Shown: one piece after another, positions 1,508-51,923 of the stretch
Layout of the letters: each line of letters begins with the position of its first letter
How positions within the stretch are numbered: position 1 is the stretch's first letter
DNA from: a virus
Lineage: Duplodnaviria > Caudoviricetes
Direction: 5' to 3' (one strand)
DNA: 64,000 nucleotides
IMG/VR virus record: IMGVR_UViG_3300028048_000072
Span: 32,001 to 96,000 of that record
The notes under the pieces: generated by a model
Told to the model about the DNA's origin: nothing
Databases searched by the model: none
The model's input: the letters and a program-made list of their open reading frames with translations, nothing else
Position numbers and translations under genes: made by a program

Positions 1508-2146
1508 TTATAATCTTTCTATATAACCTTGTTCAATTAATGCTTTTTTAATTGACATGGCAATTTGTTGTGTAAAAAATCCAAAATGTCTTAAAACAGA
1601 TTCAATAATTTTTGATACTTTTACATTTGGTCTATATTTATCCCAAAATTTAGGGGCAATATTACAAGGCATTAAACTCGCATTATCTAAACTTAACCAA
1701 TATGACAACCCCATCCACCAAAAAGAAGGGTCTGAACTTTTTAATTTTATATCTTCACTTAATTGAATTAATGCAACAACATCACCTTTTGTAAAATCAT
1801 TTGGTCTTTCCAATCCGAATTCTTCAATTAAATCCCAAAAATCATTTATTCTGATTGTTACCATATATTCATCGGAAATATTATTAATCATTTCTCCATT
1901 ATTACCAACTAATTCTTTTTTAACACTTCCATCTTTAGTTGCTTTTACCGCAAATAAAATATCACAATATCCTTCGTCATCAATTTCTGTAGCAATCAAT
2001 CTTATATTAGATATATCTTTACCGTTATATTTTCTTCTTAAATCGTAAAACTTTTTAAGATGCCAATTGTCATCTCCCGTATAAAATATTTTATTTATAA
2101 GTTCACTATAAGATAGATTTTCAATCAATTTTTCTGAATCGTTCAT
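1508..2146 (-). CDS. hypothetical protein with degenerate SWIM-like segment
   Basis: KLKSSDPSFWWMG...VSKIIESV resembles CxCPxF...CKH with ligands replaced; start taken as ATG 2146. Confidence 0.5.
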   Translation of the reverse strand: MNDSEKLIENLSYSELINKIFYTGDDNWHLKKFYDLRRKYNGKDISNIRLIATEIDDEGYCDILFAVKATKDGSVKKELVGNNGEMINNISDEYMVTIRINDFWDLIEEFGLERPNDFTKGDVVALIQLSEDIKLKSSDPSFWWMGLSYWLSLDNASLMPCNIAPKFWDKYRPNVKVSKIIESVLRHFGFFTQQIAMSIKKALIEQGYIERL

Positions 2147-2170
2147 ACTCAAATAGTTAATTTTATAAAA

Positions 2171-21084: not shown

Positions 21085-21963
21085 ATGATTAAAAAGTTCA
21101 TTTATGGTCAAGAAATCATAGATTTCCTTGAAGAATATGGTTACAATAAGCGTGGTGAAGATTTTGAACAACATAAAGATTATTCTACAGTAACATATAT
21201 GTATGCTATTCCTAAAGGTATGCGACCACAAACACCTTATGTAGAATTTACAGTGGATGCAGATAATGATGCATTTATCTTTGGTGAATATTTTACAGAT
21301 GGTAGAAAAGGATATTCAACAGAATTTGATTCTGTAGAAGATTTGGAATATTTTGTTTCTAATGCAAATTATAAAAATTCAGATTTGACAGAATCTAAAA
21401 ATATTCCAACAATTGAAGGTAATTATAAAGCAAATGATGGAAATGACTATTATAACATTGCATTAAATCTTGAAAATGGTGATTTTGTAAGAATTAAAAA
21501 TGCTAGTTGTACCGCTGTAGCAGAAGAAATGGCATGTGAATATTTTAATGTTCCTTGTAATGCTATGACTTATAAAACTATTAAAATTATTTTTATGGGA
21601 ACTTCACCAAATCTTGATTTGAATAAAATCCCTAAGAAATATCAGAAATATTTCAATAAAATCAATGAATCTAAAAAATCATTGAAAGAATCTACAATTG
21701 AAAAAGATATTGAAGATTATGTTTATAATAAAGTATCTTCTTTATATGATTCTATTGTAGAAGTAACATATAATGATAATGATGAACTTGTTATTAAAAT
21801 TGGTGTATGGGATTTGTATGGAACTAATAAAGCAGATAAAATTTCATCAATGTTATCAAGAGATAATTATTTCATGAAAATGGTAGATAATACTGATAGA
21901 ATTTGTAAGTTGTCAATTTATGATGTTGAAAAACCATCTGTATATCGTGTAGACCAAATCTAA
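21085..21963 (+). CDS. three-module protein with LTESK / INESKKSLKES linkers
   Basis: ORF translation. Confidence 0.7.
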   Translation: MIKKFIYGQEIIDFLEEYGYNKRGEDFEQHKDYSTVTYMYAIPKGMRPQTPYVEFTVDADNDAFIFGEYFTDGRKGYSTEFDSVEDLEYFVSNANYKNSDLTESKNIPTIEGNYKANDGNDYYNIALNLENGDFVRIKNASCTAVAEEMACEYFNVPCNAMTYKTIKIIFMGTSPNLDLNKIPKKYQKYFNKINESKKSLKESTIEKDIEDYVYNKVSSLYDSIVEVTYNDNDELVIKIGVWDLYGTNKADKISSMLSRDNYFMKMVDNTDRICKLSIYDVEKPSVYRVDQI

Positions 21964-29965: not shown

Positions 29966-30040
29966 GATTCTTTAGTTCAGTTGGATTAGAACAATTGCCT
30001 TCTAAGCAATAGGTCGCAAGTTCGAATCTTGCAAGAATCA
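29966..30040 (+). tRNA. tRNA-Arg(TCT)
   Basis: Cloverleaf; attgc-CTTCTAA-gcaat anticodon arm; GTTCGAATC T-loop; CCA not encoded. Confidence 0.95.
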
Positions 30041-35019: not shown

Positions 35020-35090
35020 TCTTGGATAGTGTAATGGTAGCACATCAGTTTTTGGTACTGAATGTGAGGGTTCGAATCCTTCTCCGAGAA
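35020..35090 (+). tRNA. tRNA-Gln(TTG)
   Basis: tcttgga/tccgaga acceptor stem, tcagt-TTTTGGT-actga, GTTCGAATC. Confidence 0.9.
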
Positions 35091-35215
35091 CTTTAATTAT
35101 AAACACAGATGTTGTTTCCAACTAAATGTTTAGGTGATAATCCTACGGATGAAAGATATTGGAGTAACGACCAATAACAAATACTAATGTGTTTATAATT
35201 TATTTAGAGGATAAT

Positions 35216-35584: not shown

Positions 35585-35630
35585 TAGACAATGTGTTGGA
35601 AAATATTATAATATATAATATATAATTTTT

Positions 35631-35712
35631 GCACCTTTGGCGGAATTGGTAGACGCATTTGGTTTAAGCCCAAACGATGAAAATCATAAAGGTTCAAGTC
35701 CTTTAAGGTGTA
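35631..35712 (+). tRNA. tRNA-Leu(TAA)
   Basis: GGCGGAATTGGTAGACGC D-arm, tttgg-TTTAAGC-ccaaa, long variable arm, GTTCAAGTC. Confidence 0.92.
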
Positions 35713-35735
35713 TACTTTTAATAAGTGGAGATAAA

Positions 35736-46985: not shown

Positions 46986-49121
46986 ATGAACGAAACAAAT
47001 GTCAAGATAAAGAAAATCAAGAAAGTTATGAGTGAAACAAATTTTATTGGTGTCGATTTGAGTAAAGGTAGTGATGTAGGAACTTGTAATGGAAAAGTTA
47101 CACCTAAAGTTGTAAAAAAAGTAAAGAAGATTGTAAAAGATGAATCTACCATGAAATCTGATGTTGTAGACAATTCTCCTTGCGATTTCAGTGATTTTGA
47201 AAGTGGTAAAGTTGAAGTATCTAGTTCTGCTAATGTGCCGACTGTGAAAAAGGTGAAGAAAGAAATTAAAAAAATTGTAAAAGATATTAAAGACGAAATA
47301 TCTAATTCTACAGATGTAATTTCTTTTGTACGAGTCATTGACTTGAAAAGAGAAGATTATTCAGAATTTACTGAAGAAAAATATCCATACGGTTTGACCT
47401 TCCTAGATTTTGAGGTGTTCAAGTATGATTGGTTGGTAGTTTTGATAGATGTTATTGAATTAAAAGAAACTATAATTGTAAACGATAGAAAAGCGTTGTT
47501 GAAGTTCTATATGTCTCATCGTAACAAATTACACGCTTCATATAACGGTCGCTCTTACGATTCTACAATATATAAAGGAATTATTCTTGGTATGAATCCT
47601 AAAGAATTGAATGATAAATTGATTGTAGAAAGATTAAAACCTTTTCAAATTAGTAATAAATTTAAAGAAGTTGAATTATTAAATTATGATATAATGACTA
47701 AAATAGAATCATTAAAGGTTCTTGAAGCGTACCTACAAGATTCTATATATGAATCAAAAATTTCTTTTGACATTGATAGACCTCTTACAATGGATGAACT
47801 TGAGGAAACGATTCGCTACTGCCATAACGATGTTGTGGAATGTAAAAAAGTTTTTCTTTTAAGACACGATGATTTTGAAGTTAGTATGGGTGTAATTGAA
47901 ATGTTTAATTTACCTATATCAAATATAAATCTTACAAATGCACAATTGACTGCTAAAGTTTTGGAATGTGAAAGACCAAAAGAAGATAGAAAAGATGAAT
48001 TTAATTTGTGGGTAGTTGATACAGTAAAACTTGAAAAATATAAAGACGTTATCGATTGGTTTATGAATCCTGCAAATCATGATTATAGTAAATTTTATGT
48101 TCGTGATGTTTGTGGTATGAAACATAAATTTGGTTGGGGTGGATTACATTCTGTGAATGATGAACCGATGATTATCAACGAACATGTACAAGATTGGGAT
48201 GTGGCTAGTCTTTATCCCTCACTTGATATTCGATACGAGTTGCTAACTAGAAATTGTAAACATCCTGAAAAATTTAAATTTATTTATGACGAACGCATTC
48301 GATTAAAGAAAGCAAAAGACCCTAAGAACAAATGTTTGAAGTTGATTTTAAATTCAACTTATGGAATTTGTAAAGATAAAAACAGTTCTGCTTACGACCC
48401 TTTGATGTCAAACATGACTTGTCTTACAGGACAACTTTTAATTCTTATGTTAATTGAATGGATTGAACCTTATGTAAAAATATGGGTTCAAACCAATACG
48501 GACGGAATCCAGTTTGTTGCTAAAGATGGTTGTCAAGAAAAGATAGAAAGTTTAATTCACAAATGGGAAGGTGTATCAGGTATGAATATGGAAGTCGAAA
48601 ATATTTTGAAAACTTACCAATCGAACGTCAACAATTATACCTTCCAACTAGATGATGGGTCGTTTAAAAGAAAAGGAGCATATCTTAAAAAAGCAACTCC
48701 ACTAGACGCTGATTTACCAATTGTCAATGAAGCAATGTTTAATTTCTTAGCATATGGAAAAAAAATTGAAGATACTATAAATGAATGTAATGATTTATAC
48801 ATGTTTCAGAAAGTGTATAAAATTTCATCAAACTACAAATATGGTTATCATAATGGCAAAGAAATTAACGAAAAGGTGTATCGTATTTTTGCTTCTAATG
48901 ATTTGAAAGATACATGGTTAGGAAAACAGAAAGAAAAAGGGGGAACGATTGAAAAATTTGCAAATTGTCCAAATAACTGTTTTCTTGAATTGGGAGATAT
49001 ACATGGTAAAAAATGTTCAGAATATCCTATGTTGAATAAACAATGGTATATTGATTTAGCACAAGATAGAATTGAAAAAGGTTATCATTTGGATTGTAAA
49101 CCAAGTATTTTTGATTTTTAA
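46986..49121 (+). CDS. family B DNA polymerase
   Basis: DFE, YNGRSYD, YCHND (exonuclease); DVASLYPS, KLILNSTYG, NTDG (polymerase). Confidence 0.92.
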   Translation: MNETNVKIKKIKKVMSETNFIGVDLSKGSDVGTCNGKVTPKVVKKVKKIVKDESTMKSDVVDNSPCDFSDFESGKVEVSSSANVPTVKKVKKEIKKIVKDIKDEISNSTDVISFVRVIDLKREDYSEFTEEKYPYGLTFLDFEVFKYDWLVVLIDVIELKETIIVNDRKALLKFYMSHRNKLHASYNGRSYDSTIYKGIILGMNPKELNDKLIVERLKPFQISNKFKEVELLNYDIMTKIESLKVLEAYLQDSIYESKISFDIDRPLTMDELEETIRYCHNDVVECKKVFLLRHDDFEVSMGVIEMFNLPISNINLTNAQLTAKVLECERPKEDRKDEFNLWVVDTVKLEKYKDVIDWFMNPANHDYSKFYVRDVCGMKHKFGWGGLHSVNDEPMIINEHVQDWDVASLYPSLDIRYELLTRNCKHPEKFKFIYDERIRLKKAKDPKNKCLKLILNSTYGICKDKNSSAYDPLMSNMTCLTGQLLILMLIEWIEPYVKIWVQTNTDGIQFVAKDGCQEKIESLIHKWEGVSGMNMEVENILKTYQSNVNNYTFQLDDGSFKRKGAYLKKATPLDADLPIVNEAMFNFLAYGKKIEDTINECNDLYMFQKVYKISSNYKYGYHNGKEINEKVYRIFASNDLKDTWLGKQKEKGGTIEKFANCPNNCFLELGDIHGKKCSEYPMLNKQWYIDLAQDRIEKGYHLDCKPSIFDF

Positions 49122-49144
49122 CAAATTAACTATTTTAGTAATTG

Positions 49145-49224
49145 AACGATTACAGATAGGTGTGCGAAACCTTAGAAAGTAAAGAAATCGACTCCTTTTA
49201 CTTTCATATCTGCAATCGTTTTTT
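49145..49224 (+). ncRNA. putative three-way-junction antisense RNA
   Basis: 14-bp closing stem, two hairpins, T tail; loops complementary to 49270-49276 and 49299-49307. Confidence 0.6.
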
Positions 49225-49310
49225 ATTTAATTATTTTATTTATAAATATTAACTATTTATTATGTGTTATTCGCACTAGCACAAAAAATTATTTCTATAG
49301 GAGTCGAATT

Positions 49311-50456
49311 ATGACAAAAGAAGAAGCAACTCAAAAATATTATAATTTAGTGGAATTATGTAAAATTGAAGATGTTGATTGTGAAAAATACAACATGCAT
49401 CATATCGAACCAATTTTTACATTGAAAGAAAAATACAATGTAAAACGAACTAAGGAAATTAGATATAATAAGAATATTGATTTTGGTGAAGAAATAAAAT
49501 GTTCAATTCCGCATCACATAATGTTACATTTTTATTTATGTTTTATGTTTGATAGAGGAACGACATTATATAAAAGTGCAAAATCTTCATTTTGGTTCAT
49601 TACTAATAAAACATTAACGCAAAGTATAGAATCTTTAACAGAAGATGATGTTAAAAATATAGGTAAATATTGTGAAGAGTTGAAGAAAACTAATTGGACG
49701 GATGAAGATAAGAAAAATTATAGAAAAACTAATAAACGAATAGAAGCCGACAGAGAATATAGAAGAAAAAACAAAGAAAGATTAGCAAAACAACATAGCG
49801 AATATTATAAAGAACATAAAGAAGAAAGAATGGAATATTATGAAGAATGGAGAAGTAAAAATGAACCTAGATTGAGGGAATATAGAAAAGAAAGAAATCA
49901 AATAATAAGAAATCGCTTGTGTGTAGACCCAAGATGTATTATTAGTAATAAAATAAAATCAAAAATAACAAATTGGAGAAATTTGTCTAGTTGGATGGAT
50001 AAAAATCCTCAAAATGAATTAGTAAAAGAATTTAAATCATCTAATGATTTTGCTGATTATTATCTTATTAAAGATGAAAATAACAATTATATATACGATA
50101 TTGAATTAGCGGAATCTATCTTAAAAACAACGACAAATAAAAAATTTTCAAATATATTAAATTTTAAAATACAAGGAGTTAAAAATCCTAAAGATAGTAA
50201 TGTTCGTTTATGTATAGACCCCAGATTTGGAAAAACGATAATTATATCTAAATACAAAAGTATAAATTGGAATTCAGAAATTACAGAATGGAGAAATTTG
50301 TATAATTGGTGTAAACGTAATTCTGATAATGAACTGATTGAAAATTTAAAACCCAATGAATTTGCAAACAAATATTTAATAATTGATTCAGAAGGAAATT
50401 ACATTTATGATGAAGAAACAGCATTAAAAATTATTAATAAAGAAAATAATGATTGA
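49311..50456 (+). CDS. HNH homing endonuclease with duplicated C-terminal domain
   Basis: HHIEP...HHIMLHFYL; two copies of LC(V/I)DPR..WRNL..W..NEL..YLI..NYIYD. Confidence 0.7.
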   Translation: MTKEEATQKYYNLVELCKIEDVDCEKYNMHHIEPIFTLKEKYNVKRTKEIRYNKNIDFGEEIKCSIPHHIMLHFYLCFMFDRGTTLYKSAKSSFWFITNKTLTQSIESLTEDDVKNIGKYCEELKKTNWTDEDKKNYRKTNKRIEADREYRRKNKERLAKQHSEYYKEHKEERMEYYEEWRSKNEPRLREYRKERNQIIRNRLCVDPRCIISNKIKSKITNWRNLSSWMDKNPQNELVKEFKSSNDFADYYLIKDENNNYIYDIELAESILKTTTNKKFSNILNFKIQGVKNPKDSNVRLCIDPRFGKTIIISKYKSINWNSEITEWRNLYNWCKRNSDNELIENLKPNEFANKYLIIDSEGNYIYDEETALKIINKENND

Positions 50457-50516: not shown

Positions 50517-51923
50517 ATGAAAGATGAAACTTTAAAAATTTCTATTTTGGAAAAACAGATTATTAAAAGTTGGTTGAATGACCCGTCTTTAATGATTGAG
50601 GATGACATTTTTTGTTCTGAAACTGCAAAAGAATTACAGTTTATTTTATTAAATCTTAGGGATGAAAATAAAGATTTTACAGAAGAACACATTTTGTCTG
50701 AAAGTGTGGAATATGTAAATAAAGATACTTTAGATTCCATAAATGAAGTAAATTATCAAGAAGATAAAATAGAAGATTATGTTCAGAATTTAAGAAAAAA
50801 GAATATTTTGTTTTCATTTAAAAATGAACTTCTTCACGAAATAAATTCTGATGATAGTGATTTTGAAAAAGTAATTTCACTTCAATCATCCTTAGATGAA
50901 GCAATCAGTAAAATTGAAAATCCAAAAGAAGATGAAGGAATGTCTTTTAGTGATATGATTGACACTCATATCGAAACATTAAAAGACAGAAAAAACAATG
51001 TAAGTGTAAGTACGGGCGATTATTTGTTAGACAGACTTGCAAAACCTACGGCAGGGATATGGACTATACTTGGGTATAGTGGTTCATGTAAATCAACTTT
51101 TGTTGCTACACAATTAAAGGCTAGAATTTCAAAAAGATTACCTACAGTTTATTTTAATACAGAACTTTCACAAGAAGGTGTAATGGATGGTTTGTTGTCA
51201 TCTTTAATTAAAGAAACATATTATGATATTCAAGGTATGTATAATGATGATGAACATATTGATTTTGATACAATTATTGAAAAATGTAAGTATTTGGCAG
51301 AACATTCTGATAAATCAAAATTCGCATATTTTCCAAATTCTACAGTAAGTGTAAATGATATTAAAAGATTTTCTCTTATTCAAAGAAAGAAAATGGGATT
51401 AAAGAAAAATGAATTATTGTTTGTATATGTAGACCTTTTATCTATGGTAAAAGAATTTCAAGAAAATACTAGAGGTTCTAACCGTTCAGATGTCATTTTA
51501 CAAGCATTGAATAAATTGAATGATATTGCTTTAGCAAACAATTTATTGATTATTGGTACTGTACAAGCGAAACGTATGCCAACGGGAATTAAGATTAATA
51601 AAGAAGAAGATATTATGAAATTTCAATTGGATGCTAGTGCGATTAGGGATTCAGGTGGATATGAAGAAAGAAGTCGTTGTATTTTTAGTATTTTTAATCC
51701 TTACAATATTGTTCGCAAAAACCCATGTAGTGAAGTTATTAAAGCAATAACAGAACCAATAATTTATGTTAAAACTCTAAAAAATACATATGGCGAAGTT
51801 GGAAAAGAAGTATATTATTATTTCGATGCAGATTATAAAAATCTTTATCCTTATGAAGGTGAATTACCTAACTATAGTTTAGATGAAGAAGATGAAACGG
51901 AGAATGTAGAAAATGACGATTGA
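50517..51923 (+). CDS. DnaB-like replicative helicase
   Basis: GYSGSCKST, FNTEL, YVDLL, VQ, IRDSGGYEE. Confidence 0.8.
   Translation: MKDETLKISILEKQIIKSWLNDPSLMIEDDIFCSETAKELQFILLNLRDENKDFTEEHILSESVEYVNKDTLDSINEVNYQEDKIEDYVQNLRKKNILFSFKNELLHEINSDDSDFEKVISLQSSLDEAISKIENPKEDEGMSFSDMIDTHIETLKDRKNNVSVSTGDYLLDRLAKPTAGIWTILGYSGSCKSTFVATQLKARISKRLPTVYFNTELSQEGVMDGLLSSLIKETYYDIQGMYNDDEHIDFDTIIEKCKYLAEHSDKSKFAYFPNSTVSVNDIKRFSLIQRKKMGLKKNELLFVYVDLLSMVKEFQENTRGSNRSDVILQALNKLNDIALANNLLIIGTVQAKRMPTGIKINKEEDIMKFQLDASAIRDSGGYEERSRCIFSIFNPYNIVRKNPCSEVIKAITEPIIYVKTLKNTYGEVGKEVYYYFDADYKNLYPYEGELPNYSLDEEDETENVENDD

What the first reader, a model, noticed from the sequence alone, without database searches (positions are those of the whole stretch)
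49127..49313. Three-way-junction small RNA with two loops complementary to the leader of the downstream HNH gene
Seen: TAACTAT at 49127, then an RNA of about 80 nt closed by a 14-bp stem (49145-58/49207-20, one mismatch) with a T tail. Loop 1 GTGCGAA (49162-68) is the exact complement of TTCGCAC (49270-76), itself the loop of a hairpin (tgtgtta/tagcaca). TCGACTCCT (49188-96, loop 2) is the exact complement of AGGAGTCGA (49299-307), which covers the SD. A second TAACTAT at 49250 could start the mRNA separately. Established: T4 homing endonucleases are silenced by RBS-sequestering hairpins. Inference: here a separately promoted, double kissing-loop antisense RNA acts like an antitoxin for the nuclease.
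Basis: partly seen in the sequence, partly recalled or inferred. Interest (0 to 1): 0.8.

Follow-up and report, generated by a model that had tools for sequence, protein, structure and literature searches.

The report
Two-loop phage RNA silencing neighbouring nuclease gene
An uncultured phage carries a small, folded RNA gene whose two loops match the leader and ribosome-binding site of the next gene, a mobile nuclease-like gene, and matched changes in related phages show the pairing is real, much as in the c4 RNA of phage P1.

Summary
A 76-nt three-way junction (49145-49220) ends in a U-run. Its 7-nt loop is the exact complement of the loop of a hairpin at 49263-83. Its second loop is complementary to 49299-49310, which covers the Shine-Dalgarno (SD) site of the ORF at 49311.

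This is not chance. I found ten further loci from other samples (nine with the intergenic region), falling into six sequence classes. Both contacts, the closing stem and the mRNA hairpin all change in a compensatory way. Cognate RNA/leader pairs beat all other pairings (1 of 720 permutations). In its own 132.7-kb genome this leader is the best target of 172 genes.

TAACTAT is the most upstream-specific 7-mer in the genome apart from SD-like words, so separate promoters for the RNA and the mRNA are plausible. They are not shown, because no usable RNA data exist.

The closest known system is the P1/P7 c4 antisense RNA: same strand, two sites, the downstream one over the ribosome-binding site. 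The Rfam C4 model does not match this RNA, and the layout of the recognition elements differs.

The target ORF has an HNH-like motif that no Pfam model or fold search recognises. It is laterally exchanged between phages, as a homing-type gene would be.

Verdict: a real, conserved RNA-RNA repression module and a new variant of a known kind. The "antitoxin" label is unproven.

The parts
49127..49133 (+). TAACTAT, promoter-like element P1 for the small RNA, just after the polymerase stop codon (49119-21)
   Evidence: Genome-wide, 36 of 45 copies are intergenic and 28 lie within 45 nt upstream of a gene, in sense. The motif is kept upstream of the RNA in 9 of 10 loci. Promoter function is inferred, not shown.
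49145..49220 (+). Core of the small RNA, 76 nt, a three-way junction. The closing stem is 49145-57 / 49208-20.
   Evidence: MFE fold z -4.27. In the RNAalifold and covariance-model alignment, 10 of the 13 closing-stem pairs show changes on both sides and 98% of cells are paired. Model R1 finds it once in the genome.
49158..49172 (+). Hairpin 1: 4-bp stem AGGU/ACCU with the 7-nt loop GUGCGAA (49162-68), recognition element 1
   Evidence: The loop is the exact complement of 49270-76. In relatives the loop and its target change together: GUACGAA/UUCGUAC and GUGAGAA/UUCUCAC.
49175..49205 (+). Hairpin 2: 10-bp stem with the 11-nt loop AAAUCGACUCC (49185-95), recognition element 2 (anti-SD plus specific bases)
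   Evidence: It is complementary to 49299-310. Six classes have different loop sequences, each matching its own SD region. Only 1 of 720 permutations scores as well as the cognate pairing.
49219..49228 (+). U-run directly after the closing stem, terminator-like
   Evidence: Read from the sequence. A T-run follows the stem in all 10 loci (column 'tail'). The consensus scanner does not call it, because the enclosed 'loop' is longer than 8 nt.
49228..49234 (+). TAATTAT, a decayed copy of TAACTAT. Most relatives have an intact TAACTAT here, which gives tandem promoter-like elements.
   Evidence: Alignment A1.
49250..49256 (+). TAACTAT, promoter-like element P2 for the mRNA
   Evidence: It lies exactly 6 nt before the 5' hairpin in the 9 loci that have the motif.
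49263..49283 (+). Hairpin at the inferred 5' end of the mRNA: 7-bp stem and 7-nt loop UUCGCAC (49270-76), target site 1
   Evidence: Across 7 distinct sequences, 100% of cells are paired and 2 pairs changed on both sides. The loop is the exact complement of loop 1 in every class.
49299..49310 (+). Target site 2, AGGAGUCGAAUU: the SD site (AGGAG) plus the spacer up to the start codon
   Evidence: Positions -11 to -4 each show two or three Watson-Crick pair types across the classes (read).
49311..50456 (+). Target ORF, 381 aa. It has an N-terminal HNH-like domain (..NxHHIxP..KCSxxHHxxLH..) and two ~85-aa RLCxDPRF repeats.
   Evidence: There is no Pfam or PHROG hit. It is laterally exchanged: 93% nt identity to L083 although the polymerases are 48% identical, and 61% identity to L084 although the polymerases are 97% identical.

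Best explanation
The intergenic region holds a small regulatory RNA gene and the leader it controls.

A TAACTAT promoter-like element (49127) would start an RNA of roughly 80-85 nt. This RNA folds into a three-way junction closed by a 13-14-bp stem and ends at the U-run (about 49224-28). A second TAACTAT (49250) would start the mRNA of the next gene at about 49263. The mRNA would then begin with a hairpin that displays UUCGCAC in its loop.

Loop 1 of the small RNA (GUGCGAA) kisses that hairpin loop. Loop 2 (AAAUCGACUCC-U) pairs with AGGAGUCGA-UU, which covers the Shine-Dalgarno site and the spacer up to the start codon. This blocks 30S binding and keeps translation of the nuclease-like ORF low.

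The RNA, the leader and the ORF travel together as one laterally exchanged cassette at the 3' end of the DNA polymerase gene. Each cassette lineage has its own matching loop/target pair.

Shown here: the structure, the two complementarities and their co-variation, the uniqueness of the target, and the promoter-like behaviour of TAACTAT. Inferred: the transcript ends, action in trans, repression of translation, and nuclease activity of the target.
For: 1. Anatomy.

2. Relatives. The ORF has homologues in other samples. Nine further loci (L083-L088, L210-L213) carry the same layout: polymerase, then an intergenic region of about 165-195 nt, then the ORF. (L089 has only 34 nt of upstream sequence.)

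3. Six sequence classes keep both contacts through different sequences.
- Loop 2 / SD region: UCGACUCCU/AGGAGUCGA; CAGUCCUC/GAGGACUG; UCAACUCC/GGAGUUGG (with one G:U); CUACUCC/GGAGUAG; AAUCAACCCUC/GAGGGUUGAUU; GACCUC/GAGGUC.
- Loop 1 / hairpin loop: GUGCGAA/UUCGCAC; GUACGAA/UUCGUAC; GUGAGAA/UUCUCAC.

4. Cognate pairs score best. For loop 2 and the SD region, the summed duplex energy is -80.1 kcal/mol for cognate pairs against -50.6 for the best all-mismatched assignment, and only 1 of 720 permutations is as good. For loop 1 the figure is 24 of 720.

5. Divergence sits at the contacts. Window and L083 intergenic regions are near-identical except for two patches. Those patches are exactly the hairpin-2 loop and the spacer/SD region.

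6. RNA structure is supported. In the closing stem, 10 of 13 pairs have changes on both sides, 98% of cells are paired and 0 of 500 shuffles reach the covariation score. In the mRNA hairpin, 100% of cells are paired. G:U pairs in stems and contacts point to the RNA level rather than DNA.

7. Target specificity in the own genome. This leader ranks first of 172 genes for loop 1, for loop 2 and for their sum (-25.5 against -15.2 for the next gene). It is the best site on either strand apart from the RNA gene's own antisense.

8. Separate transcription. TAACTAT is the most upstream-specific 7-mer that is not SD-like. It is kept before the RNA and, at a fixed 6-nt distance, before the mRNA hairpin. 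A U-run follows the closing stem in all loci.

9. Precedent. P1 c4 works this way (PMC5320573; annotation of AF234172; fold).
Against: - No transcript data exist. The single metatranscriptome run found holds only two read-sized contigs inside the ORF.
- Promoter and terminator roles are inferred from motifs. The simple terminator scan calls nothing here.
- Only six independent classes exist, all from one clade, so the statistics are modest.
- Loop 2 contains a generic anti-SD core (CUCC). It scores -10 to -11 kcal/mol on several other genes.
- Class L213 has an internal mismatch in the SD contact. Hairpin 1 has only 4 bp.
- A relative of the ORF (L216) sits 19 nt after the polymerase stop with no RNA at all. 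The RNA is therefore not a universal need of this gene family.
- Sequence alone cannot separate action in trans from pairing within a read-through transcript.
Confidence: 0.6

Rival explanations
1. The same base pairs form, but only in cis. The folded domain is part of a long transcript that reads through from the polymerase gene (or from P1 past a leaky terminator). Its loops fold back onto the hairpin loop and the SD site of the same molecule, silencing translation. Transcripts started at P2 lack the domain and are translated. This is the T4 logic of delayed homing-endonuclease expression, built with a long-range contact in place of a local hairpin.
For: - The co-variation supports pairing but not the number of molecules involved.
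- The two partners lie about 100 nt apart on one strand.
- T4-type endonuclease genes are silenced in read-through transcripts and freed by an internal late promoter (PMC3014915).
- P1 c4 itself is co-transcribed with its target (PMC5320573).
Against: - A stem plus U-run directly after the domain is kept in all 10 loci. One or two promoter-like elements are kept between the domain and the target.
- A promoter-like element also sits directly before the domain.
- Together these signals look like a separate short transcription unit.
Confidence: 0.25
2. The folded RNA has another main job, and the match to the leader is secondary. Candidate jobs are a branched terminator or attenuator of the polymerase operon, a processing or stability element, or a decoy for a host factor.
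For: - It sits at the end of the polymerase gene and ends in a U-run.
- The hairpin-1 region is strongly conserved in sequence beyond what pairing needs.
- Loop 2 resembles a generic anti-SD.
Against: - A terminator does not need two displayed loops that track changes in a site 100 nt downstream.
- The leader is the single best target in the genome.
Confidence: 0.08
3. The complementarities act at the DNA level. They would be inverted repeats serving as paired protein-binding or recombination sites of the mobile cassette, not as RNA contacts.
For: - They are inverted repeats within a laterally exchanged cassette.
- The ORF has repeated modules that could bind DNA.
Against: - G:U wobble positions occur in the contacts and stems; these do not pair in DNA.
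- Each repeat sits precisely in a hairpin loop of a co-varying RNA structure.
- One repeat coincides with the SD site.
- The repeats differ in length and register between classes.
Confidence: 0.04

Closest known systems
c4 antisense RNA of phages P1 and P7 (Rfam C4, RF01695), immI operon c4-icd-ant
   Same: - Both are RNAs of about 77 nt closed by a long stem with a three-way junction (P1 fold; this RNA).
- Both are encoded upstream of the target on the same strand.
- Both have two short recognition elements (7 and 8-9 nt) that pair with two sites in the downstream leader. The distal site covers the ribosome-binding site (PMC5320573).
- The gap between the two target sites is 22 nt in both (P1 3431-3452 of L215; here 49277-49298).
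- In both, specificity differs between related phages by a few matched changes. For P1 versus P7, PMC5320573 cites Citron & Schuster 1990. Here there are six classes.
   Different: - The Rfam C4 model finds nothing in this genome at E<=10. It scores 68.8 bits on P1.
- In c4 one element (a') lies in the single-stranded junction, and the first hairpin is a plain tetraloop. Here both elements are hairpin loops.
- The order of the elements along the RNA is reversed relative to their targets.
- c4 is cut out of the operon transcript by RNase P, and its first target starts 3 nt after it (PMC5320573). Here promoter-like and terminator-like signals frame the RNA, and further promoter-like elements precede the target.
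- Here target site 1 is itself a hairpin loop, giving a loop-loop kiss.
- The c4 target is an antirepressor operon of a temperate phage. Here the target is a mobile nuclease-like gene.
RBS-sequestering hairpins of T4-type homing endonuclease genes (I-TevI, Aeh1 mobE, segB)
   Same: - Translation of a mobile endonuclease gene is held down by pairing of its ribosome-binding site.
- A promoter placed so that some transcripts escape the pairing is part of the design (PMC3014915).
   Different: - Those are short local hairpins within one mRNA.
- Here the anti-SD sequence lies about 100 nt upstream, in a separate co-varying three-way junction behind a terminator-like signal.
- A second contact (loop-loop) adds specificity.
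Kissing-loop antisense control of plasmids (ColE1 RNA I/RNA II, R1 CopA/CopT) and type I toxin-antitoxin RNAs
   Same: From my own knowledge: fully complementary 6-7-nt hairpin loops start the recognition, and matched loop changes define specificity (incompatibility) groups. In type I toxin-antitoxin systems an RNA blocks translation of a harmful protein.
   Different: - Those RNAs are mostly transcribed from the opposite strand of their target and are fully complementary to it. Here the RNA is on the same strand and has only two short matches.
- The protein here is a 381-aa nuclease-like protein, not a small membrane peptide, and its toxicity has not been tested.
CfrI antisense RNA of cyanophage S-PM2, between psbA and the homing endonuclease gene F-CphI
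   Same: A phage non-coding RNA physically linked to a homing endonuclease gene (PMC12197685, citing Millard et al. 2010).
   Different: CfrI is a true antisense transcript from the opposite strand with a proposed role at psbA. It is not a same-strand, two-loop repressor of the endonuclease's SD site.

Membership tests
Rfam C4 antisense RNA (RF01695) | Match to the family covariance model at or above the gathering score (45 bits) | tested here: not met
   No C4 hit in 48900-49500 at E<=10. No hit in the whole 132.7-kb record at E<=10. The positive control, P1, scores 68.8 bits.
Rfam C4 antisense RNA (RF01695) | RNA of about 77 nt, with a long closing stem enclosing two hairpins | tested here: met
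   76-nt core, 13-14-bp closing stem and two hairpins.
Rfam C4 antisense RNA (RF01695) | Lies upstream of the target on the same strand, with two short target sites, the distal one over the RBS | tested here: met
   Sites at 49270-76 and 49299-310, start codon at 49311.
Rfam C4 antisense RNA (RF01695) | Recognition elements are the b' hairpin loop plus a' in the 3' single-stranded junction; the first hairpin is a tetraloop | tested here: not met
   Here both elements are hairpin loops, and the upstream-site binder comes first.
Rfam C4 antisense RNA (RF01695) | Matured from the operon transcript by RNase P | not testable with these tools
   No usable RNA reads. Promoter-like and terminator-like signals suggest a different route.
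Type I toxin-antitoxin system | Small toxic, usually membrane-active, peptide as the target | tested here: not met
   The target is a 381-aa protein with an HNH-like motif and repeat modules.
Type I toxin-antitoxin system | An RNA that blocks toxin translation by base pairing | tested here: inconclusive
   Pairing over the SD site is supported by co-variation. Neither repression nor toxicity was measured.
T4-type cis RBS-sequestering hairpin | The SD site is paired within a short local hairpin of the same leader | tested here: not met
   In the fold of 49122-49330 the SD region is not in a local hairpin. Its only strong complement lies 111 nt upstream, in loop 2.
HNH (beta-beta-alpha-Me) endonuclease | Match to a Pfam HNH model | tested here: not met
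   No HNH hit for the ORF, for 12 homologues, or for 10 distant relatives.
HNH (beta-beta-alpha-Me) endonuclease | His-His at the end of strand 1, an Asn, and a His on the following helix | tested here: inconclusive
   - The wider family keeps K[YF]NxHHIxP...GNxIKLSxxNHxxAH.
- In the window's subfamily the Asn position is Glu or Asp.
- The AF2 model of residues 1-125 (pLDDT 91.5) has strand 27-31 ending in HH, strand 61-65 and helix 66-79 carrying H68/H69/H73.
- The protein-atlas neighbours include a cluster in which 17% of members carry HNH.
- Foldseek and VIA-align list no HNH structure.
Free-standing homing endonuclease gene | Patchy, laterally exchanged distribution at a fixed site between conserved genes | tested here: met
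   - The ORF is 93% nt identical to L083 while the rest of the polymerase is 67% identical or undetectable.
- The ORF is 61% aa identical to L084 while polymerase and helicase are 97% identical.
- It is absent from the IMG/VR viral contigs, including the 80 polymerase relatives fetched from them.
- L210 has a second copy of the polymerase C-terminus downstream of the cassette.
Free-standing homing endonuclease gene | Site-specific cleavage of the cassette-free allele | not testable with these tools
   This needs an enzyme assay.
Intrinsic terminator | A stable stem directly followed by a U-run | tested here: inconclusive
   A 13-14-bp stem plus U-run is present in all 10 loci. The stem closes a branched structure rather than a simple hairpin, and the scanner does not call it.

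The most novel reading that the evidence does not exclude
The small RNA and its leader form a private lock-and-key pair that belongs to the mobile nuclease cassette.

The six matched loop/target classes would then be specificity (immunity) groups, like P1/P7 heteroimmunity or plasmid incompatibility groups. They would be driven apart by conflict between related cassettes, or between co-infecting phages. A resident RNA would silence an incoming cassette of the same class but not one of another class. That would decide which endonuclease is expressed and which genome is cut during mixed infection.

The evidence does not exclude this. Divergence between near-identical intergenic regions is concentrated exactly at the two contacts, and non-cognate pairs are predicted to bind much less well.
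Probability: 0.15. Interest if true: 0.8.

Novelty: new variant of a known kind. Interest (0 to 1): 0.62.

Why it matters
Known homing-endonuclease genes in phages are kept quiet by local hairpins in their own mRNA. This would be a case where the mobile gene carries a dedicated small RNA repressor with two recognition loops.

- It extends the c4 design, so far a family of Proteobacteria and their temperate phages, to a very AT-rich uncultured phage lineage and to a different kind of target, with no detectable sequence kinship.
- The six natural classes with matched changes form a ready-made specificity set. They could be used to test how two short contacts (a loop-loop kiss plus SD occlusion) set the selectivity of an RNA regulator.
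- The TAACTAT motif gives a first handle on transcription signals in this phage group.

Tried and rejected
- **Rfam.** A scan of 48900-49500 at E<=10 gave only three chance-level hits (snoRNA and plastid families). The C4 model found nothing in the whole genome.
- **tRNA.** ARAGORN finds four tRNAs in the window but none here, so the RNA is not a tRNA or a tRNA-like gene it recognises.
- **GenBank phages.** blastn with polymerase plus ORF gave no match.
- **IMG/VR.** The ORF gave no relatives. The polymerase gave 80 loci at <=45% identity; none carries the RNA. Two exact-pattern scans gave nothing.
- **Metagenome pattern scan.** All 120 loci (L090-L209) are chance hits, many in tRNA-like or coding contexts. 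This scan was wasted.
- **RNA evidence.** One bovine-gut metatranscriptome run holds 6% of the sampled words. When laid on the window, only two perfect 151-nt contigs fall inside the ORF (50030-50180, 50269-50419). The other pieces are short, low-identity matches. It says nothing about the small RNA or about transcript ends, and such a library can contain DNA.
- **Sigma-70 promoter and simple terminator scan.** It gave nothing beyond chance.
- **ORF identity.** Pfam, PHROGs and PDB profile searches found nothing meaningful.
  - The whole-protein AF2 model was poor in the N-terminal domain.
  - Foldseek on both models, and VIA-align wide on the good N-domain model, listed only helical look-alikes at Z<=5.2.
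- **Papers.** The older P1 papers (PMC204598, PMC523184, PMC312442, PMC41593) are not held.
- **Small ORFs.** I rejected the idea that the region encodes a peptide. The 30-aa and 36-aa ORFs overlapping it have no SD site and would be broken by the indels in loop 2 seen in relatives.
- **First 17 nt of the ORF.** These are invariant across loci. I considered that they are part of the RNA contact and found no complement in the small RNA. A conserved N-terminal helix plus AT-biased codon choice explains the invariance more simply.
Full report
**Setting.**
The window is bases 32001-96000 of a 132,722-bp IMG/VR virus record with 26.7% G+C. The finding lies in the 189-nt gap between two genes. Upstream is a family-B DNA polymerase gene (46986-49121; phrog_1252, E 1e-129). 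Downstream is a 381-aa ORF (49311-50456) with no Pfam or PHROG match. A DnaB-like helicase gene follows (50517-51923).

**Observation.**
- The region 49134-49230 folds into a three-way junction with MFE -23.5 kcal/mol, z -4.27, and 0 of 200 shuffles as stable.
- Its parts are a closing stem of 13-14 bp; hairpin 1, with a 4-bp stem and the loop GUGCGAA; and hairpin 2, with a 10-bp stem and the 11-nt loop AAAUCGACUCC. A U-run follows.
- Downstream, a 7-bp hairpin at 49263-83 displays UUCGCAC, the exact complement of loop 1.
- AGGAGUCGAAUU (49299-310) is complementary to loop 2 over 12 nt with one mismatch. It covers the SD site and the spacer up to the ATG.
- The 9-mer AGGAGTCGA and its reverse complement each occur once in the whole genome.
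- None of 5000 shuffled leaders reaches both loop energies.
- Among the 5' regions of 172 called genes this leader ranks first for loop 1, for loop 2 and for the sum (-25.5 against -15.2 kcal/mol).
- Over all 51-nt windows on both strands, only the RNA gene's own antisense scores better.

**Relatives and co-variation.**
The ORF has homologues in assemblies from other samples. I fetched their contigs. Nine loci with enough upstream sequence show the same layout. L089 has only 34 nt upstream of its ORF. Together with the window, the intergenic regions fall into six classes. Each class has its own matched pair of loop 2 and SD region:

| Class (loci) | Loop 2 | SD region |
|---|---|---|
| Window, L084 | UCGACUCCU | AGGAGUCGA |
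| L083, L086 | CAGUCCUC | GAGGACUG |
| L085, L087, L088, L210 | UCAACUCC | GGAGUUGG (one G:U) |
| L211 | CUACUCC | GGAGUAG |
| L212 | AAUCAACCCUC | GAGGGUUGAUU |
| L213 | GACCUC | GAGGUC (then a mismatch and two more pairs) |

Read in register from the start codon, positions -11 to -4 each show two or three different Watson-Crick pairs across the classes.

Loop 1 and the mRNA hairpin loop change together twice: GUACGAA/UUCGUAC and GUGAGAA/UUCUCAC.

In a 6 x 6 matrix of duplex energies, the cognate pair is the best in every column and in five of six rows for loop 2.
- The cognate sum is -80.1 kcal/mol, against -50.6 for the best fully mismatched assignment. Only the true assignment among 720 permutations reaches it.
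- For loop 1 the figure is 24 of 720, because four classes share the same loop.

The window and L083 intergenic regions are almost identical except for two patches. These are exactly the hairpin-2 loop and the spacer/SD region.

The RNA's own structure is supported as well.
- In the covariance-model alignment, 10 of 13 closing-stem pairs show changes on both sides. 98% of cells pair, the covariation score exceeds all 500 shuffles, and sliding the partner by one to three columns destroys the pairing.
- The window's single A:C mismatch in that stem is A:U or G:C elsewhere.
- The mRNA hairpin pairs in 100% of cells, with two pairs changed on both sides.
- G:U pairs in stems and contacts argue for the RNA level rather than DNA.

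**Transcription signals.**
TAACTAT occurs 45 times in the genome. Of these, 36 lie in the 8.4% that is intergenic, nearly always on the coding strand. 28 lie within 45 nt upstream of a called start. Apart from SD-like words it is the most upstream-specific 7-mer. A plain count in the window is not above chance; the signal is in the placement.

Several genes start 7-10 nt after the motif, as expected if it is a -10-type element giving leaderless or very short leaders. That reading is an inference.

In the relatives the motif is kept right after the polymerase stop, before the RNA, in 9 of 10 loci. It is also kept, often twice in tandem, before the mRNA hairpin. The last copy is always exactly 6 nt from the first base of the hairpin. 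L211 has TATAAT-like words at the equivalent places instead. A U-run follows the closing stem in all loci.

This is the anatomy of a short, self-contained transcription unit followed by a separately started mRNA whose first structure is the target hairpin. No expression data could be obtained. The one metatranscriptome run that shares words with the region yields only two read-sized contigs inside the ORF.

**Comparison with the known.**
Rfam has no match for the RNA. The design is nevertheless that of the c4 antisense RNA of P1/P7, for which PMC5320573 summarises four points:
- it is a 77-nt RNA processed by RNase P;
- its loops a' and b' pair with the downstream mRNA;
- b' occludes the ribosome-binding site and a' gives specificity;
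- four matched differences separate P1 from P7.

I fetched the P1 record. There c4 (77 nt) is followed by target a2 (7 nt), a 22-nt gap, target b2 (8 nt) and then icd. The gap between the two sites here is also 22 nt.

P1 c4 folds into a three-way junction too. There, however, the first hairpin is a plain tetraloop, b' is the second hairpin loop, and a' lies in the single-stranded junction. The order of the elements therefore mirrors the order of the targets. Here both elements are hairpin loops, and they come in the same order as their targets.

The Rfam C4 model scores 68.8 bits on P1 and finds nothing in this genome at E<=10.

The element therefore works like c4 but is not a detectable member of that family. 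It also differs in being framed by promoter-like and terminator-like signals.

The T4-type control of homing endonuclease genes (PMC3014915) shares the aim, which is to hide the RBS. It uses a local hairpin, and none forms here.

**The target gene.**
Homologues share a well-conserved N-terminal domain of about 100 aa and two to four copies of an ~85-aa RLCxDPRF module.

A scan of the 1.8-billion-protein library with the N-domain found 19 relatives. Their alignment shows the core K[YF]NxHHIxP ... GNxIKLSxxNHxxAH. This reads as an HNH motif without the usual cysteines. In the window's subfamily the Asn position is Glu or Asp, and cysteines are present.

With this alignment AlphaFold2 gives a confident model (pLDDT 91.5). 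It has a strand ending in His-His, a second strand, and a helix carrying three His residues. This is compatible with a beta-beta-alpha-metal fold.

No Pfam model, PDB sequence profile, Foldseek search or VIA-align search confirms the fold. 'HNH-like' is therefore a reasonable reading, not a result.

The gene does behave like a mobile one.
- Against L083 it is 93% identical in DNA. The intergenic region is 83% identical, the last 290 nt of the polymerase gene 76%, and the rest of the polymerase gene 67% or undetectable (48% at protein level).
- Against L084 the polymerase and helicase are 97% identical, but the ORF is only 61% identical and has an extra repeat.
- L210 carries a second copy of the last ~50 codons of the polymerase gene downstream of the cassette. 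This looks like an insertion footprint.
- IMG/VR holds no relative of the ORF, and none of the 80 more distant polymerase relatives fetched from it carries the RNA.
- A more distant ORF relative (L216) sits 19 nt after the polymerase stop with no RNA. The RNA therefore belongs to one sub-lineage of the cassette.

**Mechanism and odds.**
The best-supported reading has five steps.
1. The cassette encodes its own small RNA.
2. Loop 1 makes a 7-bp loop-loop kiss with the 5' hairpin of the mRNA.
3. Loop 2 pairs over the SD site and spacer.
4. Translation of the nuclease-like protein is thereby held down.
5. Matched loop/target changes give each cassette lineage a private pair.

I put the functional pairing at about 0.85. 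I put the full statement, with a separate trans-acting RNA, at 0.6. The same pairing acting only within read-through transcripts gets 0.25. Other roles for the RNA, or DNA-level repeats, share the remainder.

What is shown is structure, complementarity, co-variation, target uniqueness and motif statistics. What is inferred is the transcript ends, repression, trans action, and the nuclease activity and harmfulness of the target.

**Verdict.**
The finding is a new variant of a known kind of system, not a new kind. The 'antitoxin' label should be replaced by 'c4-like translational repressor RNA of a mobile nuclease-like gene'.

The same stretch was also noted in an overlapping window (e1-5885297); its follow-up was withheld and not used.

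Noticed in passing
whole genome; in the window e.g. 14572, 18358, 19308, 27225, 29137, 32862, 36572, 55045, 59395 (+) and 1190, 2153, 2665, 6642 (-): TAACTAT, often TAACTATWTT, sits 7-30 nt upstream of many start codons on the coding strand. 36 of 45 copies are intergenic. It is probably the phage's own promoter element, and several genes would be leaderless or nearly so.
   Followed up: partly
window 2133-2163 (-) versus 49123-49156 (+): The promoter-like element plus the first bases of gene 1508-2152(-) resemble the promoter-like element plus the 5' arm of the small RNA: AAATTAACTATTTGAGTATGAACGATTCAG against AAATTAACTATTTTAGTAATTGAACGATTACAG (88%, E 7e-5). The 5' part of the RNA gene may derive from a duplicated gene start. 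That gene has no PHROG hit.
   Followed up: partly
L210 3266-3415: A second copy of the last ~50 codons of the DNA polymerase gene lies downstream of the cassette (RNA, ORF and a 104-aa gene). This looks like the footprint of an insertion that brought its own polymerase 3' end.
   Followed up: partly
window 49311-50456 and homologues (alignment A2): The ORF carries 2-4 copies of an ~85-aa module (RLCxDPRF ... W ... FA.YLI.D..GNYIYD). AF2 predicts the module confidently (pLDDT about 88-92), but it has no Pfam or PDB match. Copy number and sequence vary between otherwise near-identical phages. It may be a DNA-recognition array.
   Followed up: partly
L217 409-496 and L218 347-434: A distant relative of the ORF (P0021) has TAACTAT in its upstream region. 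It also has an 8-nt anti-SD word (AATCTCCT) 27 nt before its SD site (AGGAGATT). The MFE fold does not form that pair and the two loci are identical, so this is unsupported. It could be a cis version of the same control.
   Followed up: partly
L216 1380-1530: A relative of the ORF (57% identity in the N-domain) follows the polymerase stop after only 19 nt, with no small RNA. This is a natural RNA-less arrangement.
   Followed up: no
window 21291-21377, 29966-30040, 35020-35091, 35630-35713: Four tRNA genes on the + strand: Gln-UUG twice, Arg-UCU and Leu-UAA.
   Followed up: no
L083 2398-2449: The public gene call for the L083 homologue starts at an in-frame GTG inside the leader hairpin, giving 400 aa. 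The conserved ATG with its SD site lies 51 nt downstream and is the likely true start. The corresponding frame is closed in the window.
   Followed up: no
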